A DNA stretch of 64,000 bases from Candidatus Uhrbacteria bacterium (GTDB lineage: Bacteria > Patescibacteriota > Patescibacteriia > JACRJV01): positions 36,191-100,190 of the forward strand of contig JACRJV010000003.1 of assembly GCA_016215325.1 (NCBI GenBank), given 5' to 3'. Below the pieces are notes generated by a model. That model was not told the origin of the DNA, searched no databases, and worked only from the letters and a program-made list of their open reading frames with translations. Below, piece by piece: positions 28,478 to 60,619 of the stretch. How positions within the stretch are numbered: the stretch's first letter is position 1; each line of letters begins with the position of its first letter. Made by a program: the position numbers and the translations under genes.

Positions 28478-28574
28478 ACTTAACGCAGCAAGATAAGTAA
28501 ATTAAGTAAAATAAGCCCCGTTTCGGTCGATGCTTGTCTCGCTTATCTTGATTAATTAACTCATCTTGCTAGAT
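28478..28574. repeat. Intergenic hairpin repeat, copy A (inverted orientation relative to B and C)
   Basis: AGCAAGATAAGTAAATTAAGTAAAATAAGC arms around loop CCCGTTTCGGTCGATGCTTGTCTC; core reverse-complementary to copies B and C. Confidence 0.6.
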
Positions 28575-30355: not shown

Positions 30356-30458
30356 CATAGCTCGTAAGCAAGATAAGTAGATTAAGCGAGATAAGCTAGA
30401 CAAGCATCAACCCGAACGGGGCTTACTTTACTTAATTTACTTATCTCGCTTATCTTGC
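30356..30458. repeat. Intergenic hairpin repeat, copy B
   Basis: AAGCAAGATAAGTAGATTAAGCGAGATAAGC ... ACAAGCATCAACCCGAACGGGGCTTACTTTACTTAATTTACTTATCTCGCTTATCTTGCTT; nearly identical to copy C. Confidence 0.6.
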
Positions 30459-30914
30459 TTATCGATTCTGGATACTCCAATCAAACCCGATCTTCGGGTC
30501 GTCCCAGGCGATCCGGCCTTCATCAGGGTCCTTCGTGTTATAGGCCTCGGTGGTGTGGTAGAGCAACAACACCGGCTTGGTGCCGAGTACCTGGTAGCCA
30601 TGTGCAACGCCCTTGGGAATGCGGATCGCCAAGGGGTTTTCTTCGCCCGTCACGACGGTGTCGATTTGGCCGCTGGTGGGTGAATCCGACCGAGTATCGT
30701 ATAAGACAACGCGCGCCATGCCTTGCGCAATGTACCAAATATCGTCTTGCTTTTTGTGGAAATGGAACGCCTTAATCACGCCCGGATTAGTGATCGACGC
30801 CGAAGTCTGCTTAACATCCGCAAACACCGGTTCACCGGCCTTGATAATTTCGCGGAAATATCCGCGATCATCCACGTGGGTTTCGAGTTTTTTGATGACG
30901 ACTCCGTTGAGCAT
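30459..30914 (-). CDS. rmlC: dTDP-4-dehydrorhamnose 3,5-epimerase (short cupin form)
   Basis: 151 aa; RGYFREI, HFHKKQDD and VAHGYQVL motifs of RmlC. Confidence 0.85.
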   Translation of the reverse strand: MLNGVVIKKLETHVDDRGYFREIIKAGEPVFADVKQTSASITNPGVIKAFHFHKKQDDIWYIAQGMARVVLYDTRSDSPTSGQIDTVVTGEENPLAIRIPKGVAHGYQVLGTKPVLLLYHTTEAYNTKDPDEGRIAWDDPKIGFDWSIQNR

Positions 30915-31008
30915 AACGTGGTAAGATGAGTAAAATAAGCGAGATAAGCAAGATAAGCTACAAGCATCGACGGAATGGGGCTTACTTTACTTAATTTACT
31001 TATCTCGC
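30915..31008. repeat. Intergenic hairpin repeat, copy C
   Basis: AAGCGAGATAAGCAAGATAAGCTACAAGCATCGACGGAATGGGGCTTACTTTACTTAATTTACTTATCTCGCTTATCTTGCTT. Confidence 0.6.
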
Positions 31009-31935
31009 TTATCTTGCTTTTCGTTGTCGAAACCAAGCTACAGTTTTTTCGATCCCCTCTTCCAGGGCGACCTCTGGATTCCACCGCAATTGCTCCTTGG
31101 CTTTATGGGAATCAATCGCGCTCTTGCGCTGTTCGCCCTCTTTGGCCGGACCATGAGCAATGGAGGGTTTATACCCTGCCGCGCGAGCGACGAGTCGAGC
31201 AACAGTGTTGATAGAGCACTGTCGTCCGGTCCCAATGTTATAGATTCCATTTTTTTTACTCTTTACTGCTGCAATGTTTGCTCGCACGATATCATCCACA
31301 AACACAAAGTCGCGTGTTTGCCGCCCATCACCGTTAATAACGGGCCCACTACCCGTCAGCATCTTCTGCGCAAAGATAGCGATAACGCCTGCTTCACCGC
31401 TGCTATTCTGCCGCGGGCCATACACATTGGCATACCGCAAGGCAACCCATCGGCACCTGCTGCGAGCCCCAGTATAACGGAGATAATGCTCTCCGGCAAG
31501 CTTGCCGATCCCATAGGGTGATGCGGGGGATGGGGCAGCAGATTCTAATGTCGGAAGAGGAGTTCCGTCTCCATACACTGCGCCACCGCTGGACGCAAAC
31601 ACAATGTTCGTTACCCCGGCATGCTCACACGCTGCCAACAGCCGGATGGTCCCCAAAATATTCGTTTGCGCATCAAATACGGGATCCTGGACCGAACGCC
31701 GCACATCCATTTGTGCAGCATGATGGAATACTGCTTGGGGTTTAACGTCACGGACAATTTTTTCCAGTCGAGACGAACGGATGTCGAGCTTGTAGAACAT
31801 TGCCTGTGCATTAATGTTCCGCCGGGATCCCGTTGATAAATCGTCAACGATAACCACGCGATGCTCCTGTGCGATCAGCGCATCAACAATATGGGATCCG
31901 ATAAACCCGGCGCCGCCGGTGACTAATATATTCAT
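31009..31935 (-). CDS. NAD-dependent epimerase/dehydratase, UDP-glucose 4-epimerase-like
   Basis: MNILVTGGAGFIGSH, SGGAVYG, YGIGKLAGE (YxxxK); start trimmed to MNILVTGG. Confidence 0.8.
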   Translation of the reverse strand: MNILVTGGAGFIGSHIVDALIAQEHRVVIVDDLSTGSRRNINAQAMFYKLDIRSSRLEKIVRDVKPQAVFHHAAQMDVRRSVQDPVFDAQTNILGTIRLLAACEHAGVTNIVFASSGGAVYGDGTPLPTLESAAPSPASPYGIGKLAGEHYLRYTGARSRCRWVALRYANVYGPRQNSSGEAGVIAIFAQKMLTGSGPVINGDGRQTRDFVFVDDIVRANIAAVKSKKNGIYNIGTGRQCSINTVARLVARAAGYKPSIAHGPAKEGEQRKSAIDSHKAKEQLRWNPEVALEEGIEKTVAWFRQRKAR

Positions 31936-39586: not shown

Positions 39587-42500
39587 TTACGGTTTATTGA
39601 GGCGCAACAAATTGGCATTGCACCCATTTGCTCCAATAGATTTGGCAACATTCGAAGCAACACCGTTGACAAACGGGCCGGGAGTCAGTGCGCTAAACGG
39701 ATCCCCAATCTCCCGGTCGCGGCTAAACCCAGGACGACTGGACGGCCATACCTCAAAGAATGTTCCCAAATACCCATCGGCGATAGATGGTACGTTATTC
39801 GGGCCTTTTGCGCTATAGACATACGCGCGAGCATTGCCGGCACTGGGGCATTGGAAGTTTTTTGCTGCCTCATCCCAGCACGTTTGCGGGTCGTGCGGAC
39901 GATTGCATCCGACAAAGTAATTGAGTGGATCACTTGCGATCCGCGGCCCTCCATCAAGATTCTCTTTCAGGGTCTCCTGCCAGCTCGGCCACGTACTGTA
40001 GCTTAACCCACGAATGAACGTCCCGGCGGTGAGTTCGGGGAATTTGCTGTTTTGCGTGGCATAATTCTTGAGACGCACTTCCAAATCACGCAAGTCAGAA
40101 GCCCGCCGCACATCGCGTTTTAGCGCAGTGCGCACCCCAGGATCGTCAATATTAAGCGCGAACTTCCAACGATTGAGCAGCTGTGGGACAACGGATTGCA
40201 TTTCTTTGCGGGCATCCTTTGTGATCGAGAGCAGATACACGTTCGTAAAGAGCTGCTTATATCGTGAACGGGCAGTCATACCATCAGAACCGACAACTGT
40301 ATTATCAAGCACGTCATCATCGCGCAAGCGGGCCATTGTATAATACCACGTATCCCCTTCCTGGATACCATCCACGCAGTCTTCGCCCTCGGGCAATGTC
40401 GGTGCGTAGGTCCGTCGATTCTGGCAATCAATACTGCTGACGCTCGCGCGGTCGGCGCGAGGATTTACAACCGCGTTCGACTCCAAATACCAGCGAGCCG
40501 CGGAGAATTGTTGGCCATTTTGCATCACCGTGAGAGCAATCAAATCAGGCGCACCTGGTTCTCGGAAGTAGAATTGCTTCAATCGCTGGCTGGCAGGGGT
40601 TCGAAGCCGCGGCAATTCGACGCTTTGCAACCGAAGATCTGGCAACAACTTGGGCATTGCGTAGACTTTAATCGAGCTCAATATTCCGGATGCACCCTCA
40701 TTGTCTGCAATGCGATACCGCGGTTCGATGGATTGCGAAATGGGCGCCACCGGCACATTCAAGCCGCTCCCCTGCCGAAGCCATGTTACACTCACCGGCA
40801 TGACCATCGTCCTGGAGAGGGTCCCTTGGCCTACCGTCACCGTGATGTTGGCCGTACCGTTGCCAACAGAACTGATGGCGAGTTGCTCGCTCCCGAGCCC
40901 CGGCTCATCCTGTCCGGAGTGGATTCTGACAATGTTGTTGTTGCCGTCAGATGATGCCCAGGTATAGGTCAGTCCGGTCTTAATTTGTGTGCCATTTTGA
41001 TCGTAGCCCTCTACCTTAAATAAGTGTTGATTTCCCGCTGTCGCCGGATCATCGTCGTCGCTACAGCGATCGCCCACACACGAAAATGCATCACTGCGCA
41101 CTTCTTCCAACGGCACTCCATCGCGGCAGTACCCAATCGAGAACGATTGATATTGACCATTGATGCTCTGTTCCCCCGGAATCCGGCTGAAGTTACCGCT
41201 GCGCAAATGCATGGTCGCGTCATACTGATTAAAGAGGAAGCGATTGGCATAATCTCGAGTGTCGTCAAAGGGGAATGCCCCCACTTGCGATGGCCAGGGA
41301 TGCTCACAGGGGAAGACCTCAACATTAAGTGAGCGCGTTGCCGATGTCCCACCTTGCGCATAAACGCCATCGCCCTCCGCGGTAAATCGAATCGTCGATG
41401 TCCCAGCATCCCCATTTGCGGTGACATACACGCCGCTTAATCGATTGCTTGCATGGATCGAATTGGGCAAAACAGTCCATTGCGCAGATGTGCTTGGCTT
41501 TGGCTCGAGACGCTGATAGAAGCCCAATTGTTTGTTGAGCATATTGGCGGGCGTACCGCTCAAATCCGACAATGTGAGGAGGGTATCGAGCCGCGGATTT
41601 GAAGGGATCACCTCTGCGCGCACATCCAGCCATAACGGTTGTGTGCCTTCTTGATCGGCATAGGCTTGCAAAAGATAACGATGTTGAACACCCGTCCGCC
41701 CTTTGAGCCCATAATAGCAATTCTCCCACTGCGCGAACGGATCGGACGCGCTGTAATTGATGAGCCGGCTCATTGCCTGCCAGTAGTCCGCCGCTGCCGG
41801 GTCCGGACATACGGTATTTGCGGGCCCATCCATGTCATCAGGGCAGGTATCACGACCAGCGCACAAGAAACTGTCGCTATAGATATTAGTAAGTGGTAAC
41901 TCCTCGTCGGCCGTTGTTGCCCGCTGCAACCGCAGCTGGCGCAACATACCAAGGCTTTGCGGCGCGATAAGATCCAATCGCTTCACTTCGCCGCCAAGCC
42001 CTATGGTCAATGAATTATTCGTCTCGTCTGTTTCTTCCACGGATCGCAACCCATCAAGATCAAGGCGAACCGACCGATATGTTGCGAGTGATTGTGTCGG
42101 ATCCTGGAAGACAACATCCACCACCGCATCCGGATCGAGTGGAGAATCCAGCGGCGGGATCACTCCGGAGCCACCCGGAATGGGGGTTGCAAACGTTGAC
42201 TCTTTAAATATTCCATTTTCATACAATAAGGCGGCAAAATTCTGTGTCACCACCCCAGGCCCCAGGTTGATGGCCCGGAACTTCAGCTTCCATATCCCGC
42301 CTTCTTCAAACCGTTCAAAGGGGCTGGCGGTAAATGCCAAATCCGGAAGATTGCGACCCACAATAACCTGACGACCATTGTTTTCTTCGTCGGATTCTTG
42401 GATCATGTTGTCGCGATAGCTTGGATTCCCCCGTATCTGCGTGACAACATATTCAGAACTCGAATCTGGAAAAACTTCCGTATCCTGATCCAACGAATCC

Positions 42501-45500
42501 AGGACCACGCGCAATGCATTCGGTTGGTTCACATTAATATCAGATGGCAAGATAAATTGCAGCGTCAGTGTTGCGCCAGGATCCATCCGCTTCGGCTCTT
42601 GTCTTGGCCATGTATCGAGCCACAAGAGTTTGTTGTTCCAATAGATGCTCACCGGGAAATCCCGCATTGCAGCGATGGACCCTTGATTTTTTATGACCAC
42701 CTGTCCATAGTGCGTCCGCCGTATCATACCGGAACAAACGGGTAAATTTGCACTCGCGCCATCACAAGTCAACGCGCTTAACGATTCGATTGTAAGGTCG
42801 GGGAGCCGCGGCCCTTGATCAATCCCCGCATACGCCAAGGTGATCCAATTATTGACGGACGATCCGGCGCTACTGAATCCTGGCAGGCCCCATGCCGATA
42901 TTCCCAAATACCCTTCGGGATAGTTATGGGCGATGGCAATCTCCGGCAGTGAATTAACGCGGATCTGCGAATCCGCACGGTCGCCGTTTACTTCGAACGC
43001 AAGGTTCGTAAAGGATCCAATCCACCAGTCTAGCGCGGCCTCAATTTCATGGGCATCCCGTTGCTCGTCGCTCGTGGGCGTCGCGATATCGTAGACACGG
43101 ATACGGTACTGATGTTGTGCTTGCCCATCGCGCGCGTACTCGTCTCTGCCGCCAGTGGGGAACGGCCGATTCTGGGAATCGAAGATTTCAACCGACCGAA
43201 CCAATGGCAACGCAACCGTGACCCGCATGGTTTTGCGCGCCGAACGACCATTGATTTGCCGCGCGATCACGGTCACATCAAAGCTGCCGTTGTCTACCGG
43301 CGTTGCGAACAAATCATCCCCTTGATTGGTGCTCTGCCGTTGATGATTGCTTAACTGAACGCCCGCGACACCCGAAGAACCTTGTCCAACAGCCCACTCG
43401 AACGACGCATCGAGCCGACAATCACCATCGGCACTGCAGGCTTGCGCACTCCACCGATGTTGCACTCCCGGATCAGAACCCCGATCATCGGCGCAACGCG
43501 TCCCCCCACAGGCAAACGAGTCGCTCGTTGCCGGGGTATCAGGGCCAGGATCCACAATAATGTTGACATGATCGAGCAGTTTCGGTCCCGGACCAATTTC
43601 CATGGTCGCAGATGCGTTATTGGAAAGCTCGGAATCGCCCACAGCATTATAGGCAAGGATGCGGTAGTGATAGGGGACATCCTGTTGCACGGTCCGATCG
43701 CGGTAGTCTCGCTCCATGGGGTTGACAAATGTCGCCACCAGACAGAAGGCGCCGCTGCCAGAACCGGGAGTTGTCGGACAGGGATTGGTGGGCAGAGGTA
43801 ACTCCGGCTCATCAGCAATAACGGAATCATCCCTGTACAAGCGGAATCCGAGCACCCCCGGACCAGAAGGATGCGGTGACCATTCGAGCGCAATCGTCCC
43901 GTCATCCGCCCATGCGCTTAAATTTGGTCGGTACGGTTCTGTTCCGTCATGTTCGCAATCCGGACAAATTTTACCACTGGCCGGGTCGGATAATGGCGAG
44001 AGTCCCCACTCGTTATAGGCCAAGATGCGATAATGATAGAGGAGATTCGATCGCACAGCGTCATCGCCGTATCGTGTTTGACTGCGGTCAAATACGCCGA
44101 CCAAACAGAGTTGATCGCCAGCGGCCGAGCCTTGAGCGCCGCACGAGGTGGTCGGCAGCGTCGCGAGCTCATCGGGGATCGGCTGGCGGGATCGATACAA
44201 TCGATACTCGTCAAATGGGGCACCCTCGGTATTCGGCAGCCATCGCACTTCAACCGCCTGGCCGTCATCCGTGGCCGAAAGATCGTCCGGTTTAAACGGG
44301 GCCATCCCGATCACTGTGGCGCACTCTTCTATTGTCGCTTCCCCTTCGCCCATCGCATTATAGGCGGCAACCTGATAACACATCACGGACCCCGGGGCGA
44401 GCCCTTCGTCATCGATCACCGTCTCGCTTACTTGTCGTAAGAAAGCAAAACTCCCGCCGTTGCCGTTGCGGCGATAGATGCGGAATCCCAGAATTGCACC
44501 CGTGCCCGATGAGGCCGGAGCTTGCCATCGGATCGTCGCGTGCTCCACGAGTCCTTGGACGGTCAGTGTACGAGGGACTCCTGGCACTTCACCCACCGCC
44601 GTGGGGGTCGCACATTCTTCGCTCGCGGCAACGCCTTCGCCTTGCTGATTATGGGCGCTTACCGCATAGCAATAGACGCGGCCGTTGGCAAGCCCAGAGT
44701 CCTCCAGACGAAGATTCGTGAGCGTCGTCACATCCTTCAAATAGATCAGCGCTCCGTCGTTGCCTTCACGGCGATACACCGTGTACTTGCCAATCGCAGT
44801 CGTGCCGGCGCTTGCAGGCGCTTCCCATGTGAGGACGATGCGGCGATCCAATCCATCCGCAACAACATTCCGTGGCATTCCTGGAACCACCCCCGACGCC
44901 GTTGGAGTTGCGCACCGTTGGTCGGTGACCTCCCCTTCGCCGTGACCGTTCACCGCAGAAACGGCGTAACAATAGACAGTGCCGTTCTCCAGGTTCGCGT
45001 CGTCAAGCAAGAGCGCTGCCGCATTGTCAACATTTCTATAAAAAACCTGCTCTCCGGCATTGCCCACCTTGCGATACACCGTATACTGATCGATGGGAGA
45101 TGAACCGGCGGAAAGCGGTGGCTGCCATGTAATGCGGATGTTCTCATCCGCGGGAGCTGCCGCCAAGTTCCGAGGAATGCCCGGGACGCTATTGCAGGTC
45201 GTACACATGCTCGCGCTAGCGGGATTGGACAACGGCGAATCCCCGACACCATTATACGCCAGGATACGATAATGGTAGACAGTATCCGGCTTTACCGCAC
45301 CATCAACAGCGGTTTCGGCATCTTCCGCAATTGTTGCAGGAACCAAGCAGAACGCATCACTGGCAGTGCTCGCGTTTGCCCCGCAAGAATCGGTCGGCAA
45401 CGAGGTCGGCGCATCCGGGATTGCTTGGCGCGATCGATACAATCGGAACCCTGTCGGCCTCGCTCCCGCAGGACTCACAGACCACGAGAGCGTAAGCGCA

Positions 45501-48500
45501 GCGGCATTGAGCGGACTATTGGTTGCGGTTAAATCCTGGGGCGCAAACGGCGCACCACTGCCGCCGTCCTCGTATTGGCACGTTGCGTCGCATCCATCGC
45601 CATTATTGCGGTTGCCATCATCGCACTGCTCGCCGGGATTAATGGCATTGTTGCCACATAGCTGCGGGTTCTCTAACTCGCATTGTGCGCTGCATCCATC
45701 GCCATTGCTGGTATTGCCATCATCGCACTGCTCGCCGCTATCGATATCCCCGTTGCCGCACGAAGGTCCTGTGCCAATTGTTGCCTTGGCAAATGCATTA
45801 TTCGAGGACGGCGAGTCACCGGCATCGTTGAATGCGAGAATACGGTAGTGATAGATGGTCCCCACAACTACTGCTTGATCAGAGTAATCTTGTGCAGACT
45901 CCTCAAACCGCGACACAAAACAAAATGCAGCGCTTGCGGATGCAGAATCGGTGCCACAGGAAACAGTCGGCAGATTTTCCACTTCGTCCGGTATGGCCTG
46001 GGTGGAACGGTACAGTCGATACCCTTTGGGCGCAGCCCCGTTGGAATTGGATTGCCACACAAGGTGAACACTGCCCGCGCCCTCTGTCGCAGAAAGTACG
46101 GGCGGGAATGGACGCGTTCCATCCTTGCCGCAGGTGGGGCATGCCTTGGCGCTGGCAGGATTTGAGAGCGCCGAATCCCCATCCGCGCCAATCCCAAGAA
46201 TGCGATAATGATACAAAACGTTGGATGTAACGGCGCGGTCGCGATATTCGCGATCCCCTGCCGCAAGGGCACCACTGGCGAGACAGAATGCATCGCTGGC
46301 ATTTTCTTGGCTTGTTCCGCAAGAAACGGTTGGCAACGGCAATGCCGGCTCATCCGGGATTTGGGATCGGGATCGGTACAATCGATATCCGGTCGGCTGT
46401 GGGCCTTGGCTGTTGGGATCCCATTGGATAATGGTGGCGGTTACTCCATCGGTCGCGGTGAGCGTGGGCGGGAATGGTTCGGCGCCCGTGTGGCCACACG
46501 TCGAACAGGTTTTTGCGCTGCCCGCATTGGAAAGCGCGGAATCGCCCGCATCGTTATATCCCAAAATACGGTAGTGGTAGAGCGTATTGGGCTTAATTGC
46601 TCCATCATTGTAATGACGGATATTGCCTTCGAATTGACTCACTCGGCAGAATTCGTTATTAGCATTGCTCGCATTGTTCCCGCAAGAAACGGTCGGCAAC
46701 GATACAGGAGCGTCGAGTATAGGCTGAGTGGATCGATAGAGAGTGAACCCTATTGGCTGGGGCCCATACGGATTCGGGACCCAATCTACGGCGATCCGGC
46801 TGCTTCCATCCGTTGCTGCAAGGTCCGGTGGATATGGTACCGTTTCTTGCCCTTCGGTGCGCTGGCATGTATTCGTACAACCAACACCCGATTTTCCATT
46901 TTGTCCCCCGGCATCGCACTGCTCGCCCGGATCAACTCGATTGTTCCCACACAGCTTAGCGTCTTCTAATTGACACGAACCACTGCACCCATCCCCATCG
47001 CTAGTGTTGCCATCATCGCATTGTTCTCCTCGGGCAGATTGGACCGTCCCATCCCCGCATTCTTCCCCATAACATTGATCTCCAATCAAGACAGGACGCT
47101 CAAGTGGGCAATCAACTACGTTGCACACTTGGCAATCAGCTCCACCGCAATCAATGCCCGTCTCGTCGGCATCTTGGATGCCATTGGCGCAATGCCCTCC
47201 TCCCAGTCCTCCGCAAGAGCGGCAATCTGCCCCTCCGCAATCCACATTGGTCTCATCCGCATCCCTGCGCAAATTAGTACAGTGGCCGCCCACACAGGTG
47301 TTGGTGACTGGATCGCAGGTTTGCCCGTTTTGGCAATCGACATCGGATCGACATTGCGGTGGTCGGCATGACCCGTCGATACATTGCATGCCATACGGGC
47401 AATCCACATCAGTGGAACACAGCGGCACGCAAATGTTGAGCAGCGTGTTGCAGATTTCGCCATCGCGGCAATCATCGTTGCTATCGCAACCCGGGGGCCG
47501 GCATTGTCCAGAACGCAGATCACAAATAAATCCAGGGCGGCAATCGCTGTCTGCCCGACATTCTTGCCCATTATCCGCGCTCTGGCACCGACCGTTGACG
47601 CAGCGGCCGAACGGGCAATCGGCATCCACCGAGCATTGGAGATCTCGACTCGTTAATATATCAAACGGCAACCCATTGGAGGCGACCTCTGCTTGATCGG
47701 ACACTGTCTTCAACCCCCATGGGCACACGCCACGGAAGGTGACCCAACGGCATTCTTGTCGGATGTTGTAGTGGATCACGGTGCGCAATACGACGTCGTC
47801 GCTTTCGGCGGAATCTGGCACTCGCCATCGCACGCTTTCGGGCGTCCAGCTTTGATAGCGCGCATCGAGCCGACCAAGGGTAACCCCCCGAGCATCGGAA
47901 GCCTTACCAAAACGCACACCGCGCGCGACAATAGAATCACCCGTCAATCCATACGATGGGATCAGCCGACAGAGCCCAGGACCAATCGGATCTTGCGTCA
48001 GCGTGAACGCCCCGCTCTGTTGCGGTTTGGTGGTGAGCGCGCCCGCCGGGGTGGTCGGAGCGGTTGTCAACCGAACCAATCCATTTTTTGCGCCCTTGGG
48101 GATTTGGACAATAACCCAGCGATCAGACCACGCAGATCCCGCACACTCTTCCGGCAATATGGCTTGGGCGTCGTCCGTGGGATCTTTGGGGTCTCCTTCA
48201 AAAATCACTTTGCCCGGCACATATCCAAAATTTCCACCGATGATCGTCATCCACCCGCCCTCTGGGCCCCGGTCTGGACTCAAATGATCAATAAACGGGT
48301 CCATGGTAAATGTCACAGGGTTAGATTGGTTCTTGACGACCGTTGCAAGGACATACCCCGTACGCGACCGATTGGGCACCTCCACTTCTGCGCTCGCATC
48401 GGACCACGAACCATATTTCTCCACCGGAATGCCAATAAATTTTACAACGCTGTCTTGGCGCGTATCGCCCAAGTTGTCACCACGCAACGCAACCGGGTCG

Positions 48501-49894
48501 GTGACGGCTCCATGATCTGGATCAAGAGTGCAGACCGCTGGACGAATTGTAGTGTTGGAGGTAAAGGGCCGGACGTTGCTCGTCCCCGCGCTGGTTGTCA
48601 CCGTAACGGGATAGGATCCCAGCTTGAGCGTCGGCGGCGCTTGCGCAATGATTTCGTTATTGGACCATCGCGAACATCCTAAGCCCGCAGGAAGATCGCC
48701 AAACTTGACAATGCTGGTATCCTGCGAACGGCCAAAATTCTTCCCTGTGATCGTAACATAGGTATTTGCATAACTGGCAGCGATCCCGTTATCCGGCGTA
48801 ATGGCGGTGATGATGGGTTTGCCTTCCACGCAAATGCCGCCGACACAATATCGTGAAGCGCAGTCATAATTAAACCGGCATTCGGCCCCTAACGGAAGCC
48901 CGGGTGTTGGTGTAAATGTCCACGCATAGGTGCACGAAAGCGCCTTGGGCGGATCAAACGTGACGGTAATGGGGTCCAACATTGTCCCATTGCCATCCGT
49001 GTCATACAACCGCACCTGCAACTTGGCCGTTTGGCCGACTTTCTTGCCAATCGTACTCCAGGTGATGGTAAGCACGCCGTTGGCCGAAGGGTCGAATGCG
49101 CTCCATGCGACAGGAGAGCCGTCCGACAGCAACACCCCATGCGAAATCGCGCGATCATCCGTAGCGCCCACCAGCACGATCACTTGGTCATTGGCAGACA
49201 CATGGCTGCCGTCCCGCGGCGTTATCCACGAGCCCGTTGGTGCGATCGTATCGATCCCGGTGCCAATACTGATTTCGCGTTCACACGGGTGTTGATTGGA
49301 ACAACTCAAACTCGCCCCCGAACGATTGCGGATATCTGCCCCCTTAAGCGCAATGCCCACACGAGCGTTGTCCGAAAAGCACCCTTGCTTAGGGGAAGCC
49401 GCACAGGAGGCTGCGGGGTGAAACTCCATCCACGAAACCGCCGCATTCGCGTCCGTCGGAGCGAGCGCCCATGCGCCCGGCAGTAACGCATTGTTCACTG
49501 TGACACTGGCCAATGTACCAAAGTCACGCACACTTGCCTCATTCAGTGGCTGTGAAAAGAATAAACGAATTGCTGCATTGGACGGCGCTGCCGTTATGGC
49601 AGGCGTTATCGCCGACAAATAAAATGTTCCAACCGGCGGCAACACTGTTTGGGGCAGGATCGGCGTGACCGTTATCGTTGGTTGCGGTCGCGTGAGCCAC
49701 CAACCGAATGTAAGAGAAATTAACAGCCCCACCACTGTTATGGCTCCAGATACCGTCATTTTCCGTACTGAATTGACACCCGTCGGATCGATTGTTTCGC
49801 TGCTCTTCTCTCTCCACGCAACAACAAATGCGCCGGCGCCGACGAGCGTAGAAATAATCGCAAGAGATTCGATGAACCAAAGGAAGATTCTCAT
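39587..49894 (-). CDS. Giant (3435 aa) cell-surface protein: N-terminal anchor, IPT/TIG domains, Myxococcus-type Cys-rich repeats, Fn3-like repeat array, large beta-rich C-terminal region
   Basis: Uninterrupted 10.3-kb ORF; GEQCDDGNTSDGDGCSGSCQLE-type Cys-rich repeats (x4); >=8 repeats with YHYRIL(A/G)YN..GDS.LSN.ASA; three classical Fn3 units (TVYRK...YCYAVSA.N..GEG). Confidence 0.8.
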   Translation of the reverse strand: MRIFLWFIESLAIISTLVGAGAFVVAWREKSSETIDPTGVNSVRKMTVSGAITVVGLLISLTFGWWLTRPQPTITVTPILPQTVLPPVGTFYLSAITPAITAAPSNAAIRLFFSQPLNEASVRDFGTLASVTVNNALLPGAWALAPTDANAAVSWMEFHPAASCAASPKQGCFSDNARVGIALKGADIRNRSGASLSCSNQHPCEREISIGTGIDTIAPTGSWITPRDGSHVSANDQVIVLVGATDDRAISHGVLLSDGSPVAWSAFDPSANGVLTITWSTIGKKVGQTAKLQVRLYDTDGNGTMLDPITVTFDPPKALSCTYAWTFTPTPGLPLGAECRFNYDCASRYCVGGICVEGKPIITAITPDNGIAASYANTYVTITGKNFGRSQDTSIVKFGDLPAGLGCSRWSNNEIIAQAPPTLKLGSYPVTVTTSAGTSNVRPFTSNTTIRPAVCTLDPDHGAVTDPVALRGDNLGDTRQDSVVKFIGIPVEKYGSWSDASAEVEVPNRSRTGYVLATVVKNQSNPVTFTMDPFIDHLSPDRGPEGGWMTIIGGNFGYVPGKVIFEGDPKDPTDDAQAILPEECAGSAWSDRWVIVQIPKGAKNGLVRLTTAPTTPAGALTTKPQQSGAFTLTQDPIGPGLCRLIPSYGLTGDSIVARGVRFGKASDARGVTLGRLDARYQSWTPESVRWRVPDSAESDDVVLRTVIHYNIRQECRWVTFRGVCPWGLKTVSDQAEVASNGLPFDILTSRDLQCSVDADCPFGRCVNGRCQSADNGQECRADSDCRPGFICDLRSGQCRPPGCDSNDDCRDGEICNTLLNICVPLCSTDVDCPYGMQCIDGSCRPPQCRSDVDCQNGQTCDPVTNTCVGGHCTNLRRDADETNVDCGGADCRSCGGLGGGHCANGIQDADETGIDCGGADCQVCNVVDCPLERPVLIGDQCYGEECGDGTVQSARGEQCDDGNTSDGDGCSGSCQLEDAKLCGNNRVDPGEQCDAGGQNGKSGVGCTNTCQRTEGQETVPYPPDLAATDGSSRIAVDWVPNPYGPQPIGFTLYRSTQPILDAPVSLPTVSCGNNASNANNEFCRVSQFEGNIRHYNDGAIKPNTLYHYRILGYNDAGDSALSNAGSAKTCSTCGHTGAEPFPPTLTATDGVTATIIQWDPNSQGPQPTGYRLYRSRSQIPDEPALPLPTVSCGTSQENASDAFCLASGALAAGDREYRDRAVTSNVLYHYRILGIGADGDSALSNPASAKACPTCGKDGTRPFPPVLSATEGAGSVHLVWQSNSNGAAPKGYRLYRSTQAIPDEVENLPTVSCGTDSASASAAFCFVSRFEESAQDYSDQAVVVGTIYHYRILAFNDAGDSPSSNNAFAKATIGTGPSCGNGDIDSGEQCDDGNTSNGDGCSAQCELENPQLCGNNAINPGEQCDDGNRNNGDGCDATCQYEDGGSGAPFAPQDLTATNSPLNAAALTLSWSVSPAGARPTGFRLYRSRQAIPDAPTSLPTDSCGANASTASDAFCLVPATIAEDAETAVDGAVKPDTVYHYRILAYNGVGDSPLSNPASASMCTTCNSVPGIPRNLAAAPADENIRITWQPPLSAGSSPIDQYTVYRKVGNAGEQVFYRNVDNAAALLLDDANLENGTVYCYAVSAVNGHGEGEVTDQRCATPTASGVVPGMPRNVVADGLDRRIVLTWEAPASAGTTAIGKYTVYRREGNDGALIYLKDVTTLTNLRLEDSGLANGRVYCYAVSAHNQQGEGVAASEECATPTAVGEVPGVPRTLTVQGLVEHATIRWQAPASSGTGAILGFRIYRRNGNGGSFAFLRQVSETVIDDEGLAPGSVMCYQVAAYNAMGEGEATIEECATVIGMAPFKPDDLSATDDGQAVEVRWLPNTEGAPFDEYRLYRSRQPIPDELATLPTTSCGAQGSAAGDQLCLVGVFDRSQTRYGDDAVRSNLLYHYRILAYNEWGLSPLSDPASGKICPDCEHDGTEPYRPNLSAWADDGTIALEWSPHPSGPGVLGFRLYRDDSVIADEPELPLPTNPCPTTPGSGSGAFCLVATFVNPMERDYRDRTVQQDVPYHYRILAYNAVGDSELSNNASATMEIGPGPKLLDHVNIIVDPGPDTPATSDSFACGGTRCADDRGSDPGVQHRWSAQACSADGDCRLDASFEWAVGQGSSGVAGVQLSNHQRQSTNQGDDLFATPVDNGSFDVTVIARQINGRSARKTMRVTVALPLVRSVEIFDSQNRPFPTGGRDEYARDGQAQHQYRIRVYDIATPTSDEQRDAHEIEAALDWWIGSFTNLAFEVNGDRADSQIRVNSLPEIAIAHNYPEGYLGISAWGLPGFSSAGSSVNNWITLAYAGIDQGPRLPDLTIESLSALTCDGASANLPVCSGMIRRTHYGQVVIKNQGSIAAMRDFPVSIYWNNKLLWLDTWPRQEPKRMDPGATLTLQFILPSDINVNQPNALRVVLDSLDQDTEVFPDSSSEYVVTQIRGNPSYRDNMIQESDEENNGRQVIVGRNLPDLAFTASPFERFEEGGIWKLKFRAINLGPGVVTQNFAALLYENGIFKESTFATPIPGGSGVIPPLDSPLDPDAVVDVVFQDPTQSLATYRSVRLDLDGLRSVEETDETNNSLTIGLGGEVKRLDLIAPQSLGMLRQLRLQRATTADEELPLTNIYSDSFLCAGRDTCPDDMDGPANTVCPDPAAADYWQAMSRLINYSASDPFAQWENCYYGLKGRTGVQHRYLLQAYADQEGTQPLWLDVRAEVIPSNPRLDTLLTLSDLSGTPANMLNKQLGFYQRLEPKPSTSAQWTVLPNSIHASNRLSGVYVTANGDAGTSTIRFTAEGDGVYAQGGTSATRSLNVEVFPCEHPWPSQVGAFPFDDTRDYANRFLFNQYDATMHLRSGNFSRIPGEQSINGQYQSFSIGYCRDGVPLEEVRSDAFSCVGDRCSDDDDPATAGNQHLFKVEGYDQNGTQIKTGLTYTWASSDGNNNIVRIHSGQDEPGLGSEQLAISSVGNGTANITVTVGQGTLSRTMVMPVSVTWLRQGSGLNVPVAPISQSIEPRYRIADNEGASGILSSIKVYAMPKLLPDLRLQSVELPRLRTPASQRLKQFYFREPGAPDLIALTVMQNGQQFSAARWYLESNAVVNPRADRASVSSIDCQNRRTYAPTLPEGEDCVDGIQEGDTWYYTMARLRDDDVLDNTVVGSDGMTARSRYKQLFTNVYLLSITKDARKEMQSVVPQLLNRWKFALNIDDPGVRTALKRDVRRASDLRDLEVRLKNYATQNSKFPELTAGTFIRGLSYSTWPSWQETLKENLDGGPRIASDPLNYFVGCNRPHDPQTCWDEAAKNFQCPSAGNARAYVYSAKGPNNVPSIADGYLGTFFEVWPSSRPGFSRDREIGDPFSALTPGPFVNGVASNVAKSIGANGCNANLLRLNKP
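43597..46837 (-). repeat. Intragenic tandem array of ~130-150-aa Fn3-like repeat units inside the giant gene (approximate bounds)
   Basis: Recurrent motif PxGYRLYRS...P.(L)PT.SCG...AFC...YHYRILAYN..GDS.LSNPASA at regular spacing between aa ~1020 and ~2100. Confidence 0.55.
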
Positions 49895-54272: not shown

Positions 54273-54346
54273 TGGGTGCATCTGGACTCGAACCAGAGAC
54301 CTCTGTCGTGTGAGGACAGCGCTCTAACCAGCTGAGCTATGCACCC
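54273..54346 (-). tRNA. tRNA-Val (anticodon CAC)
   Basis: 74-nt cloverleaf: GGGTGCA acceptor, D-arm GCTC/GAGC, anticodon stem CTGTC/GACAG with loop CTCACAC, T-arm TCTGG-TTCGAGT-CCAGA; no encoded CCA. Confidence 0.8.
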
Positions 54347-54477
54347 GTACCAATCCTATCTTTAGTGGCACCGTCAATATCAAAAAGTCTCGTCGAGCAC
54401 TGGTTATCCACTCAACAGATCATCTAAAATATAACAGAACTCACCCCAAATAGCAAATCGATTTATCCCTTCTCATT

Positions 54478-54630
54478 GGACGCTCTGGTGCCCGATGGAA
54501 TTTAGCGAGGACTGTCTGATGCGAACCACGACTGGCGGCCGTTGATTGCGGTCGGTGCCGGTCGTGGTGGTACCGATCAACGATCGGGACGCAAGTTCCG
54601 CAGCAAATCCCATCGGGCACCAGAGCGTCC
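54478..54630 (+). other. 151-nt GC-rich structured element bounded by perfect 21-bp inverted repeats (candidate ncRNA or MITE-like element)
   Basis: GGACGCTCTGGTGCCCGATGG at 54478-54498 and its exact reverse complement at 54610-54630; internal nested stems (CGTTGAT/ATCAACG, ACCACGAC/GTCGTGGT, GGGAC-GCAA-GUUCC hairpin); G-U pairs favour plus-strand RNA. Confidence 0.35.
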
Positions 54631-54640
54631 CCATTTTCAC

Positions 54641-54669
54641 TTGAATCGTCACGTCAAACACCGTATAAT
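54641..54669 (+). promoter_or_regulatory. Near-consensus sigma70 promoter for the LCP gene
   Basis: TTGAAT (54641-54646), 17-nt spacer, TATAAT (54664-54669), ~50 nt upstream of the ATG at 54719. Confidence 0.5.
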
Positions 54670-54718
54670 AGCTCACAATGCCACACTGGAACAGTGATTG
54701 CCGTGTGGTTCATAAATT

Positions 54719-56152
54719 ATGCAACCAATTTCTCCGATAAATTTTCTCCATGAGCACCAGAATACGCAACGCAGCAGGACGCGGCGCCGCGCGGGCGTGT
54801 TGGCCGCTGTGGGCATCATTGCCGCGATCCTCTCTTCACCAACGCTGCGTCGCCCACTACTGCCCCCATCTGTCGAACGTGTTGTGGGATCGGTGGAGCA
54901 ATTTTCTATTTTCCACCTTGCTTCTAGCGCGGATCGGTTGCTGCAGGGCGAGCAAGAAGATCGCATTAATATTCTCTTATTGGGTGTCGGCGGCGAAAAT
55001 CATGACGGTGCGTGGCTGACCGACACGATTATGTTGGCTAGTTTGAAACCCAGCACAAAACAAGTCGCGCTTCTTTCACTGCCACGAGATATGGTGGTAC
55101 CCACGCAAAACGGACAATGGCGCAAAATCAACTCTGTCCACGCTGATGCGGAGCTGACCAGTCTGGGTGCGGGCCTTGGAGCGATCCAATCGACCACTGA
55201 GTCCATCACTGGACTCACCGTACCGTATGTTGTTCGCATTGACTTCCAAGGATTCACAAAGTTGATCGATGAGCTGGGTGGAATCGATATCAATGTAGAA
55301 CGGACAGTAGAGGACTACCATTACCCCATCCTGGGGGCAGAAGAAGATCCGATCTATGCCAACCGTTACGAACATCTTGTCATTCCCAAAGGATTTCAAC
55401 ACATGGATGGGGAACTCGCGCTCAAGTTTGTACGCAGCCGATATGCGCTGGGGGCCGAAGGATCGGATTTTTCGCGCTCCCGACGGCAACAGCAAGCACT
55501 CTCGGCAGTCAAGGAGAAGGTGTTGAGTGCCTCCACGCTCCTCTCGCCCCGCAAAGTGACGGCGATTTTAAATCTTTTGCAACAACATACTGCCACCACG
55601 TTCGAAGTATGGGAGATGCTGCGACTTCGACAATTAATCGACGGTGTGGATACGGGCAACATCGCGCTGACCGTATTGGACGACAGCCCATCTTCTCCCC
55701 TGGCCTCCAGCCGCGGCATCGATGGCGCCTACATCCTTGTCCCCAAAGGGGGGAATTTTGAACGCATCCAGCAAATGGCCCAGGTCATGTTCGAGGGCCG
55801 AGAATTGATCCGACCGGAATTTGGACAACAACCTTCCGCTTCCCCGACACGGCTGACCGGCGTCAAGATGAGCGTTGAGGTCCTCAATGGGACGACGCTG
55901 CCCGGATACGCGACCCGAATTGCCCAACTTCTCGAAACCAATGGCTTGAGCGTTAACTCTGTCGGCAATGCTCCCGTGCGCGATGCGACCGCAACGATAG
56001 TCTATATGAATGGTTCCACTCAAACTCTGGAAACAACGGCCAACCGTATCGCCCGATTGGTGGGGGGCGCTGTCAGTAGTGACATTCCACCATGGTTGCG
56101 GCAATATAAGAGTGCAAGCCCGATCGTCATTGTATTAGGACCGGAGCAGTAA
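54719..56152 (+). CDS. LytR/CpsA/Psr (LCP) family glycopolymer transferase with C-terminal LytR_C domain
   Basis: TM anchor, INILLLGVGGENHDGAWLTDTIMLASL and LSLPRD LCP motifs. Confidence 0.85.
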   Translation: MQPISPINFLHEHQNTQRSRTRRRAGVLAAVGIIAAILSSPTLRRPLLPPSVERVVGSVEQFSIFHLASSADRLLQGEQEDRINILLLGVGGENHDGAWLTDTIMLASLKPSTKQVALLSLPRDMVVPTQNGQWRKINSVHADAELTSLGAGLGAIQSTTESITGLTVPYVVRIDFQGFTKLIDELGGIDINVERTVEDYHYPILGAEEDPIYANRYEHLVIPKGFQHMDGELALKFVRSRYALGAEGSDFSRSRRQQQALSAVKEKVLSASTLLSPRKVTAILNLLQQHTATTFEVWEMLRLRQLIDGVDTGNIALTVLDDSPSSPLASSRGIDGAYILVPKGGNFERIQQMAQVMFEGRELIRPEFGQQPSASPTRLTGVKMSVEVLNGTTLPGYATRIAQLLETNGLSVNSVGNAPVRDATATIVYMNGSTQTLETTANRIARLVGGAVSSDIPPWLRQYKSASPIVIVLGPEQ

Positions 56153-60460: not shown

Positions 60461-60619
60461 AATAAATAAAGATTAATGAAGATGACCTGGGGTTCGCCCC
60501 AGAGAGCTGGCCGACCGGTGGCAGGAACGTACCCAATGCTGGGACACTCCTACACTTGCGGGATAGGGCTAAGGAGGGGTTGCCCGCACCCTACCTTCGG
60601 ACAGCGCACTAAGGCGAAT

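What the first reader, a model, noticed from the sequence alone, without database searches (positions are those of the whole stretch)
54478..54630. 151-nt GC-rich element with perfect 21-bp terminal inverted repeats between tRNA-Val and the LCP gene
GGACGCTCTGGTGCCCGATGG and its exact reverse complement bracket 109 nt that contain nested and interleaved complementary blocks (CGTTGAT/ATCAACG; ACCACGAC/GTCGTGGT; CGACUGGC/GCCGGUCG with a U-G pair; a GGGAC-GCAA-GUUCC GNRA hairpin). It lies upstream of, not within, the near-consensus LCP promoter (TTGAAT-17-TATAAT). So it is either an independent small structured RNA, a protein-binding cruciform, or a MITE-like mobile element. The G-U pairs favour plus-strand RNA.
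Basis: seen in the sequence. Interest (0 to 1): 0.55.

Follow-up and report, generated by a model that had tools for sequence, protein, structure and literature searches.

The report
Copy of a widespread hairpin-repeat family
The 153-base palindrome between the tRNA-Val and LCP genes is real, and it is one copy of an apparently uncatalogued family of hairpin-forming repeats whose roughly 35-base bulged core also occurs in two related Uhrbacteria contigs, Ralstonia, Parabacteroides and phage-like contigs; so it is most likely a REP/MITE-like accessory DNA element rather than a gene special to this locus.

Summary
Window 54478-54630 (153 nt, not 151) has perfect 21-bp terminal inverted repeats, 26 bp with one mismatch, and folds far better than shuffles. 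It has no Rfam match and no second copy in the 64-kb window.

It is not an orphan. Just inside the arms lies a conserved core, 5'-CGAGGACUGUCUGA...AGUUCCGCAG-3'. The same core occurs in two syntenic Uhrbacteria contigs, but at different intergenic sites, and in four IMG/VR contigs. A looser version (CUGUCUGA-GC-GNA-GC-GAGUU) sits at the tip of long hairpins in Ralstonia megaplasmids, a Parabacteroides plasmid and other viral contigs.

Across copies the stems differ in sequence but keep pairing (9 compensatory pairs), while bulges and a GUCUGA loop stay fixed. A covariance model built only from the non-CPR copies finds the window element (31.5 bits, E about 1e-5).

Copies are present or absent at orthologous sites, often occur as inverted pairs, and sit nested inside other palindromes.

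Best reading: a REP/MITE-like palindromic repeat with a conserved centre and free arms, inserted between two divergent promoters. A functional RNA hairpin is the main rival. The mobilising or binding factor is unknown.

The parts
54478..54503 (+). 5' arm of the outer stem. 21 nt are perfect; the arm is 26 nt with one A-C mismatch at 54499/54609.
   Evidence: Inverted repeat I1. The arm occurs only here in the window. The arm sequence is unrelated to the outer stems of other family copies.
54504..54519 (+). 5' half of the conserved core: bulged A54504, GCG, unpaired A54508, GGA, CU, then the loop GUCUGA (54514-54519).
   Evidence: Exact match to CGAGGACTGTCTGA, shared with L003 and five IMG/VR copies; L001 has GUGUGA and L017b one substitution. 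Aligned to model positions by the covariance model R1.
54520..54593 (+). Variable apex of 74 nt. The closing helix is UGCG/CGCA. It contains hairpin A (54525-54568) and hairpin B (CCGATC-AAC-GATCGG, 54573-54587). In minimal family members this position holds only a short hairpin, usually capped C(GNA)G.
   Evidence: Folds, repeats I2 and I8, and the 74-nt local end in the R1 alignment. The apex is 8-16 nt in L003 and L017-L020 and about 100 nt in L001.
54594..54604 (+). 3' half of the conserved core: AG, bulged U54596, UCC, unpaired G54600, C, bulged A54602, GC.
   Evidence: Exact match to AGTTCCGCAG. The pairing register is supported by compensatory changes in other copies.
54605..54630 (+). 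3' arm of the outer stem.
   Evidence: Inverted repeat I1.
54473..54676 (-). Spurious 67-codon ORF that spans the element. A source names it 'hypothetical protein HZA86_00670'.
   Evidence: ORF list and translation. Its only database relative is itself, and it has no Pfam domain.
54428..54456 (-). tRNA-Val promoter (TTGCTA-17-TATATT), 22 nt to the left of the element. Context only, not part of the element.
   Evidence: Promoter scan. Both hexamer regions are conserved in the window, L001 and L003.
54641..54669 (+). LCP promoter (TTGAAT-17-TATAAT), starting 10 nt to the right of the element. Context only.
   Evidence: Promoter scan. Equivalent hexamers read by eye in L001 (TTGAAA-17-TATACT) and L003 (TTGTTA-17-TATAGT).
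54273..54346 (-). tRNA-Val (CAC). Context only.
   Evidence: ARAGORN and Rfam tRNA at 68.3 bits.

Best explanation
The element is one copy of a widespread family of palindromic repeats that is absent from Rfam and that I could not find named in the literature. It is REP/BIME- or MITE-like in the broad sense.

What defines the family is not its ends. It is a bulged core of about 35 nt near the tip of the hairpin: CG-A-GGA-CU-GUCUGA-[variable hairpin]-AG-U-UCC-G-C-A-G. The flanking stems are free to vary as long as they pair.

Shown:
- The shared core.
- Covariation in the helices.
- Presence/absence at orthologous sites.
- Inverted pairs and nesting inside other palindromes.

Inferred:
- The unit spreads or turns over at the DNA level, probably as a strand-specific single-stranded hairpin.
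- The fixed bulges and the GUCUGA loop are the recognition site for an unidentified trans-acting enzyme or protein.
- New material tends to appear at the apex of existing hairpins. That would explain the 74-nt apex here.

In this genome a copy landed in the 184-nt gap between the -35 boxes of the divergent tRNA-Val and LCP promoters. It accounts for 153 of those 184 nt. Its perfect 21-bp arms suggest a recent origin or arm-to-arm homogenisation. Any effect on the neighbouring genes is unproven. It could act as a spacer or supercoil sink, or as an RNase III target if transcribed.
For: 1. Family membership.
- The exact 14-nt and 10-nt core blocks of the window recur in L003 and in five copies on four IMG/VR contigs. 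L001 (GUGUGA) and a sixth IMG/VR copy, L017b, are near-exact.
- A 17-mer control scan of the same collection gave 8 hits. From that, a 23-base pattern with 31 gap lengths should give about 0.06 hits.
- Model R1, built only from the six IMG/VR copies, finds the window element at 31.5 bits (E = 6.8e-6 for the window alone, 2.5e-5 across 20 sources). It finds L003 at 37 bits.

2. Selected structure.
- 92% of cells are paired and 9 of 16 pairs show compensatory changes.
- 0 of 500 shuffles reach this. Slid controls give 30-48% paired.
- Outer stems are unrelated in sequence yet always pair.

3. Turnover.
- In three contigs with the same gene order, the core sits upstream of LCP (window), right after der (L003) and next to secF (L001).
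- The orthologous tRNA-Val/LCP spacers of L001 and L003 lack it.
- L001 carries a core remnant 30 nt upstream of its copy.
- The Ralstonia glgB-glgX spacer has three allelic states at about 98% flank identity.

4. Repeat behaviour.
- There are 2-5 places per Ralstonia megaplasmid in about 128 records.
- Inverted pairs occur in L019, L025 and L030. Two inverted copies bracket a DUF2971 gene in L017.

5. No gene signals.
- No promoter or terminator serves the element.
- There is no Rfam family.

6. Precedent.
- REP dimers inserted at the centre of longer palindromes are described (PMC3733652, section 7).
Against: - Only one copy is found in 64 kb. Seven further Patescibacteria LCP loci have none.
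- There is no target-site duplication. CATT occurs on both sides but is offset by one base.
- No transposase or RAYT was identified. The window's genes were not all screened.
- Exact conservation of unpaired bases across phyla could equally mean a functional RNA-protein site.
- All three Uhrbacteria copies lie within about 6 kb of the LCP-der genes. This would also fit a vertically inherited single-copy gene that shifted locally.
- The sense strand folds better in 9 of 9 copies. Most non-CPR copies lie in sense orientation downstream of a co-directional ORF, as expected for an RNA element. The ORF calls there are my own.
- With filters off, R1 reported no window hit at E <= 1. I attribute this to the 74-nt insert, but did not prove it.
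- The source genome was not in the species-representative collection, so its genome-wide copy number is unknown.
Confidence: 0.55

Rival explanations
1. It is a functional RNA hairpin. The + strand is transcribed, either as a small RNA or as part of a longer transcript. The bulged core (A.G mismatch, bulged A and U, GUCUGA loop) is bound by a conserved protein or ribonuclease. The long duplex is cut by RNase III or blocks 3' exonucleases. This would work like intercistronic processing or stabiliser hairpins of phage and REP-containing mRNAs.
For: - Covariation with fixed unpaired bases.
- The sense strand is more stable than the antisense strand in 9 of 9 copies. For the window interior, z is -3.5 against -1.5.
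- Many copies lie in sense orientation just downstream of a co-directional gene: L003, L017b, L020, L026, L027, L029 and L030.
- In L003 the outer stem overlaps the der stop codon.
Against: - The window and L001 copies are not downstream of a co-directional gene.
- No promoter precedes the window copy, and it lies upstream of the LCP promoter.
- It is not retained at orthologous positions.
- The apical caps are mostly C(GNA)G triloops. As GCGNAGC this is the hallmark of very stable DNA mini-hairpins (PMC13037366). That such triloops are not favoured RNA loops is my own knowledge.
- A perfect 21-bp duplex is unusual for a long-conserved RNA.
- Inverted pairs put half the copies antisense to any one transcript.
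Confidence: 0.27
2. It is a DNA-level regulatory structure. The inverted repeat extrudes as a cruciform in the negatively supercoiled DNA between two divergent promoters. It either insulates them from each other or serves as a protein-binding site.
For: - It lies exactly between the -35 boxes of two divergent promoters.
- The relative L001 has a different perfect 18-bp hairpin at the same spot, abutting the LCP -35.
- The perfect arms also fold well with DNA parameters.
Against: - L003 has no hairpin at the equivalent position.
- Other family copies sit in quite different contexts: between co-directional or convergent genes, and in phage contigs.
- Nothing links the core to a DNA-binding regulator.
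- A 101-nt non-palindromic centre disfavours cruciform extrusion (general knowledge, not tested).
Confidence: 0.1
3. It is an inert chance palindrome or an assembly artefact with no relatives.
For: The arm sequence itself has no true homologue in GTDB species representatives, JGI metagenomes or IMG/VR. The few matches there lie in coding sequence or occur at the number expected by chance.
Against: - An identical sequence is in a separately stored Logan contig of run SRR12113407, which may derive from the same reads.
- The arms are far beyond chance.
- The core is shared with many other loci and is detected by an independent model.
Confidence: 0.03

Closest known systems
REP / BIME elements (GTAG- and CGTC-tagged repetitive extragenic palindromes; PMC3733652, PMC2817692)
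   Same: - Short GC-rich intergenic hairpins.
- Units often lie close together in opposite orientation.
- They lie mostly downstream of genes.
- Their stems vary within families.
- Several enterobacterial REP sequences carry GCGNAGC-like apexes (PMC2817692, Table 1).
- Some REP dimers sit at the centre of longer palindromes (PMC3733652, section 7).
   Different: - There is no unpaired GTAG or CGTC tag.
- The conserved unit is a bulged core of about 35 nt, not the whole 20-40 bp palindrome.
- The same core is found across phyla: CPR, Proteobacteria (looser form), and the looser form in Bacteroidota.
- Copy number is low where it could be counted (1 per 64 kb here; 2-5 per 2-Mb Ralstonia replicon by BLAST).
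- No RAYT gene was seen. The window was not screened for one.
Bacterial MITEs such as Correia/NEMIS, ERIC and RUP (listed in PMC3733652; details are my own knowledge)
   Same: - 100-200 bp non-coding elements with terminal inverted repeats.
- They fold into long hairpins.
- They show insertion polymorphism between strains.
- They are often called as spurious ORFs.
   Different: MITE termini are conserved among copies and flanked by target-site duplications. Here the termini are unrelated between copies, the centre is conserved, and no duplication is evident.
IS200/IS605-type end hairpins and derived palindrome-associated elements, recognised as single-stranded DNA by Y1 HUH transposases (own knowledge)
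   Same: What it may work like: a strand-specific hairpin with conserved extrahelical bases, no terminal inverted repeat requirement and no target duplication.
   Different: No tnpA or tnpB was seen next to the copies whose neighbouring ORFs were scanned. No conserved cleavage tetranucleotide was identified. Membership was not tested.
d(GCGNAGC) mini-hairpin (PMC13037366)
   Same: The apical cap of several short copies is GC-GNA-GC, or a C(GNA)G triloop on a longer stem: L018, L025, L026-L030 and L032, and C(GCA)G or C(GUA)G in L017a, L019b and L020.
   Different: It is a structural motif, not an element family. The window copy has replaced this cap with a 74-nt two-hairpin apex.
Phage T7-type intercistronic RNase III processing hairpins (own knowledge)
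   Same: Intergenic hairpins of two or more helical turns with internal loops, in sense orientation within phage operons. This is the working model for the RNA rival.
   Different: RNase III sites do not need conserved loop sequences. No cleavage data exist here.

Membership tests
Hairpin-repeat family defined here by its bulged core | 5' block CGAGGACUGUNUGA and 3' block AGUUCCGCAG on the same strand, separated by a hairpin | tested here: met
   Exact at window 54506-54519 and 54594-54603. The same blocks occur in L003, L017a, L018, L019 (two copies) and L020. L017b has one substitution in each block.
Hairpin-repeat family defined here by its bulged core | Significant score against a covariance model built without any CPR sequence | tested here: met
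   R1 built from six IMG/VR copies gives 31.5 bits and E = 6.8e-6 over the full model length, and it is the only hit in the window. Caveat: no hit at E <= 1 with filters off.
Hairpin-repeat family defined here by its bulged core | Core flanked by complementary stems whose sequence is free | tested here: met
   The window has a 26-bp outer stem unrelated to those of the other copies. Family helices show 9 compensatory pairs.
REP (GTAG/CGTC-tagged, PMC3733652) | Unpaired GTAG or CGTC tag at one end of a 20-40 bp palindrome | tested here: not met
   No GTAG at either end. The CGTC at 54626-54629 is base-paired inside the stem. The element is 153 nt.
REP (GTAG/CGTC-tagged, PMC3733652) | High copy number in the host genome | tested here: inconclusive
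   One copy in the 64-kb window.
REP (GTAG/CGTC-tagged, PMC3733652) | Associated RAYT transposase gene | not tested
   Only ORFs near the element were scanned with Pfam. None is a transposase.
MITE | Terminal inverted repeats conserved among copies | tested here: not met
   The arm 21-mer and 17-mer give only chance or coding hits in three collections. Outer stems differ completely between copies.
MITE | Target-site duplication flanking the element | tested here: not met
   The flanks read ...CTCATT | element | CCATTTTC... Only an offset CATT is shared.
Any Rfam RNA family (SRP, 6S, ribozymes, riboswitches and others) | Score at or near the family threshold | tested here: not met
   No hit at gathering thresholds, nor at E <= 10 on 54350-54760. 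None for related loci at gathering thresholds. In E-value mode the Ralstonia locus gave only sub-threshold matches to generic hairpin (microRNA) models.
Independent small-RNA gene | Own promoter upstream and terminator downstream, with conserved position in relatives | tested here: not met
   The scan found no promoter serving the element on either strand and no terminator. The element is absent from the orthologous spacers of L001 and L003. Expression itself is not testable here.
Integron attC site | R''/R' boxes (RYYYAAC ... GTTRRRY) at the base of an imperfect hairpin | tested here: not met
   The ends are GGACGCT... and ...AGCGTCC, with no GTTRRRY.
IS200/IS605-derived element | Neighbouring or genomic tnpA (Y1) gene and conserved cleavage motif next to the hairpin | not tested
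   No whole genome was available. None of the ten neighbouring ORFs scanned on the IMG/VR contigs is a transposase.

The most novel reading that the evidence does not exclude
The bulged core (A.G mismatch, bulged A, bulged U, GUCUGA loop, GNA-capped tip) is the recognition module of a still unknown, very broadly distributed system. That system acts on strand-specific DNA or RNA hairpins and inserts or grows sequence at hairpin apexes. It would be a new class of hairpin-targeting mobile or self-propagating element, shared by CPR bacteria, Proteobacteria, Bacteroidota and their phages, and distinct from the REP/RAYT, MITE and IS200/IS605 systems.
Probability: 0.2. Interest if true: 0.8.

Novelty: new variant of a known kind. 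Interest (0 to 1): 0.5.

Why it matters
- It replaces a doubtful annotation. The hypothetical protein HZA86_00670 covers a structured non-coding element.
- Candidate-phyla-radiation genomes are small and streamlined, yet this one carries a palindromic repeat whose core is near-identical to one in Proteobacteria-like phage contigs. A looser form occurs in Ralstonia and a Bacteroidota plasmid.
- A hairpin with covarying stems and fixed bulges across phyla, absent from Rfam, is a concrete target for finding its partner protein or enzyme.
- It also bears on how palindromes nest and grow inside each other. The three allelic states at one Ralstonia locus offer a tractable natural experiment.

Tried and rejected
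- Arm searches. The exact 21-mer arm in GTDB species representatives hit only an open reading frame shared by two Actinomycetota MAGs, whose product I did not identify. An arm plus interior pattern in JGI metagenomes hit only one coding sequence present on two contigs. A 17-mer in IMG/VR gave 8 hits, about the chance number by my estimate, and I did not inspect them.
- Whole-element BLAST against phages and plasmids gave only chance-level pieces. Low-stringency BLAST against the rest of the window gave nothing.
- Rfam at gathering and E-value thresholds gave nothing.
- SRP RNA, 6S RNA, hammerhead, hairpin ribozyme, group II domain V, a canonical kink-turn and retron msr were considered by eye and rejected, because their defining motifs are absent.
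- Replication origin: GC skew stays negative across the window with no switch at 54 kb.
- The 67-aa ORF has no homologue but itself.
- E. coli genomes gave only 19-nt chance matches inside a type I restriction-modification subunit M gene. The GenBank phage collection lacks the core.
- Larger-apex patterns in IMG/VR gave no hits.
- Eleven further Patescibacteria LCP loci have no copy.
- Literature searches by sequence string and by concept found no paper naming this core.
- The Ensifer BLAST hit looks like coding-sequence chance: the sequence reads like a GC-rich gene, but the record carries no annotation there.

Full report
**1. The observation**

Window 54478-54630 is a 153-nt GC-rich segment (about 60% G+C against about 42% in the flanks).
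- It has perfect 21-bp terminal inverted repeats. These extend to 26 nt per arm with one mismatch.
- With up to three mismatches, the arm occurs only as these two arms in the window. The chance expectation is 0.01.
- The whole element folds at -97.6 kcal/mol on the + strand and -89.1 on the - strand. Both are about 9 SD below shuffles.
- Without the arms, the interior is still unusually structured on the + strand (z = -3.5, 0/200 shuffles) but not on the - strand (z = -1.5, 16/200).

**2. Context**

A source names the LCP protein as from Candidatus Uhrbacteria, a candidate-phyla-radiation lineage.
- The local order is HIT, HisRS, signal peptidase and tRNA-Val on the - strand, then the element, then LCP and der on the + strand.
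- The element lies between two divergent promoters: tRNA-Val (TTGCTA-17-TATATT, 54456-54428) and LCP (TTGAAT-17-TATAAT, 54641-54669).
- Counterparts of both promoters can be seen in two syntenic relatives.
- The scan found no promoter or terminator serving the element itself.
- GC skew does not switch here, so it is not an origin.
- A 67-codon ORF across the element carries the source name hypothetical protein HZA86_00670. Its only relative is itself.

**3. First searches: negative**

- Rfam gave nothing, even at E <= 10.
- There is no second copy in the window.
- The arm sequence has no real homologue in GTDB representatives, JGI metagenomes, IMG/VR, phages or plasmids.
- The two syntenic relatives lack the element in the tRNA-Val/LCP spacer. 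These are L001 (LCP 72% identical) and L003 (49%).
- L001 has instead a different perfect 18-bp hairpin that abuts the LCP -35. L003 has none.

**4. The lead**

L001 carries, next to secF, a 190-nt element with 26-nt arms and nested hairpins. L003 carries a 101-nt hairpin directly after der.
- All three share, just inside unrelated arms, the blocks CGAGGACUGU(C/G)UGA and AGUUCC...GCAG.
- I scanned IMG/VR with CGAGGACTGTNTGA-N{5,35}-AGTTCCGCAG. This gave five matches on four contigs. A sixth, slightly variant copy turned up later.
- A 17-mer control gave 8 hits in the same collection, so about 0.06 hits were expected.
- The inner part, CUGUCUGA-GC-GNA-GC-GAGUU, lies at the tip of long hairpins in several other places, directly flanked by complementary but unrelated sequences:
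  - about 128 Ralstonia megaplasmid records, with 2-5 places each;
  - a Parabacteroides plasmid;
  - further IMG/VR contigs with AT-rich flanks.
- None of these loci has an Rfam family.
- The core is absent from E. coli and from the GenBank phage set.

**5. Structure**

I aligned seven short copies.
- The best-supported structure has a five-pair lower helix interrupted by a bulged A.
- Above it come an A.G mismatch, GGA/UCC, a bulged U and CU/AG.
- Next is the loop GUCUGA opposite a single G.
- The tip is a variable hairpin.
- This structure is 92% paired, with 9 of 16 pairs showing compensatory changes. No shuffle out of 500 reaches this, and slid controls give 30-48% paired.
- The minimum-free-energy register (GGACU/AGUUC) is contradicted by the variants.
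- The window copy fits this structure base for base and continues into its 26-bp outer stem. Only the G opposite the loop is missing.
- Model R1, built solely from the six IMG/VR copies, finds the window element at 31.5 bits (E = 6.8e-6) as the only hit in 64 kb. It finds L003 at 37 bits and the Ralstonia copies more weakly.
- Caveat: with filters off the window hit was not reported. I attribute this to the 74-nt apex insert. The same limitation probably hides the L001 copy.

**6. Behaviour of the family**

- Copies occupy different intergenic sites in contigs with the same gene order (section 4).
- L001 has a decayed core fragment beside its copy.
- Copies often come as inverted pairs (L019, L025, L030). 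In L017 two inverted copies bracket a DUF2971 gene.
- The Ralstonia glgB-glgX spacer has three allelic states at about 98% flank identity:
  - a simple GC hairpin;
  - the same site with a longer perfect palindrome;
  - that palindrome's apex hairpin duplicated around a 440-nt, internally palindromic insert with two core hairpins.
- The two Ralstonia copies differ by paired changes in both arms.
- In L003 the outer stem includes the last codon and stop codon of der.
- Apical caps are mostly C(GNA)G triloops. As GCGNAGC this is the signature of very stable DNA mini-hairpins (PMC13037366).
- REP dimers sitting at the centre of longer palindromes are already described (PMC3733652, section 7). Several enterobacterial REP sequences have similar apexes (PMC2817692, Table 1).

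**7. Interpretation**

The most economical reading is a REP/MITE-like palindromic repeat whose conserved, recognised part is the bulged centre rather than the ends.
- One copy lies between two divergent promoters here. It has an expanded apex and young or homogenised arms.
- I put this at about 0.55.
- The main rival, at about 0.27, is a functional sense-strand RNA hairpin acting in processing, stability or protein binding.
- In favour of the rival:
  - the sense strand folds better in 9 of 9 copies;
  - most non-CPR copies lie in sense orientation behind a co-directional gene;
  - unpaired bases are strictly conserved.
- Against the rival:
  - the window and L001 copies have no upstream co-directional gene or promoter;
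  - inverted pairs are common;
  - the loops are of the DNA-hairpin type.
- A cruciform or insulator role is possible at this particular site but does not explain the family.
- What mobilises or binds the core is unknown.

**8. Novelty**

Hairpin repeats of this general kind are well known. This family has a cross-phylum core, free arms and nesting at hairpin apexes. I could not find it in Rfam or in the searched literature.

I remember, unverified, seeing its reverse complement as spurious ORF peptides of the '..NSLRSDSP..' type in Burkholderiales and Xanthomonadales genomes. It may therefore be familiar to annotators without having a name.

Noticed in passing
window 60488-60612 (- strand), and L001 10440-10560: A GC-rich non-coding block of about 125 nt is conserved between the window and L001. 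It lies between the secF terminator and the next - strand gene.
- It folds as a long closing stem with two inner hairpins.
- Two sequences alone show 3 compensatory pairs.
- It has no Rfam hit, even at E <= 1.
- It may be an unrecognised structured RNA or a 5' leader.
- In L001 the hairpin-repeat copy sits directly beside it.
   Followed up: partly
window 30365-30463 and 30929-31022; also 28480-28559: Two near-identical palindromic arrays of about 100 nt, built from 9-nt units (AAGATAAGC and its complement), bracket a small - strand ORF. L003 7172-7683 has analogous arrays of a different unit, AGTAAATCCAG. Their function is unknown.
   Followed up: partly
L001 3063-3105: A perfect 18-bp hairpin (CAACCCGCCTAAGTTTTG-ttattcg-CAAAACTTAGGCGGGTTG) fills the whole gap between the tRNA-Val and LCP -35 boxes. 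This is the site orthologous to the window element, but the hairpin lacks the family core.
   Followed up: partly
L001 10213-10224: An isolated AGCGAGGACTGT lies 30 nt upstream of the L001 element. It looks like a remnant of a second or older copy of the core's 5' block.
   Followed up: no
window 54404-54441: A segment around and downstream of the tRNA-Val -10 (TTATCCACTCAACAGATCAT...TAAAATATAAC on the + strand) is highly conserved in the window and L001, and more loosely in L003. It implies a conserved pre-tRNA leader of about 75 nt.
   Followed up: no
L025 1000-1760, against L034 and L035 (Ralstonia glgB-glgX spacer): One locus has three allelic states in Ralstonia strains: a simple hairpin, a longer perfect palindrome, and a 440-nt nested palindromic insert with two core hairpins. 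This is a natural series for working out how these palindromes grow or collapse.
   Followed up: partly
L017 8950-10400: On an IMG/VR contig, a DUF2971 gene beside a CI-like repressor gene is bracketed by two inverted composite copies of the element. Each has a downstream GGTTACTTTCTTT...AAAGAAAGTAACC hairpin. The arrangement resembles a cassette or moron with structured ends.
   Followed up: partly
L031 (Acinetobacter baumannii plasmid NZ_CP072307.1, 5453-6520): Several GAGCG-NAG-CGA(G/A) mini-hairpin units, each inside its own short stem, lie in the unannotated region next to a relB/yafQ toxin-antitoxin pair. They lack the CUGUCUGA part.
   Followed up: no
window 39587-49894 (- strand): A single ORF of 3435 codons, not characterised here.
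   Followed up: no
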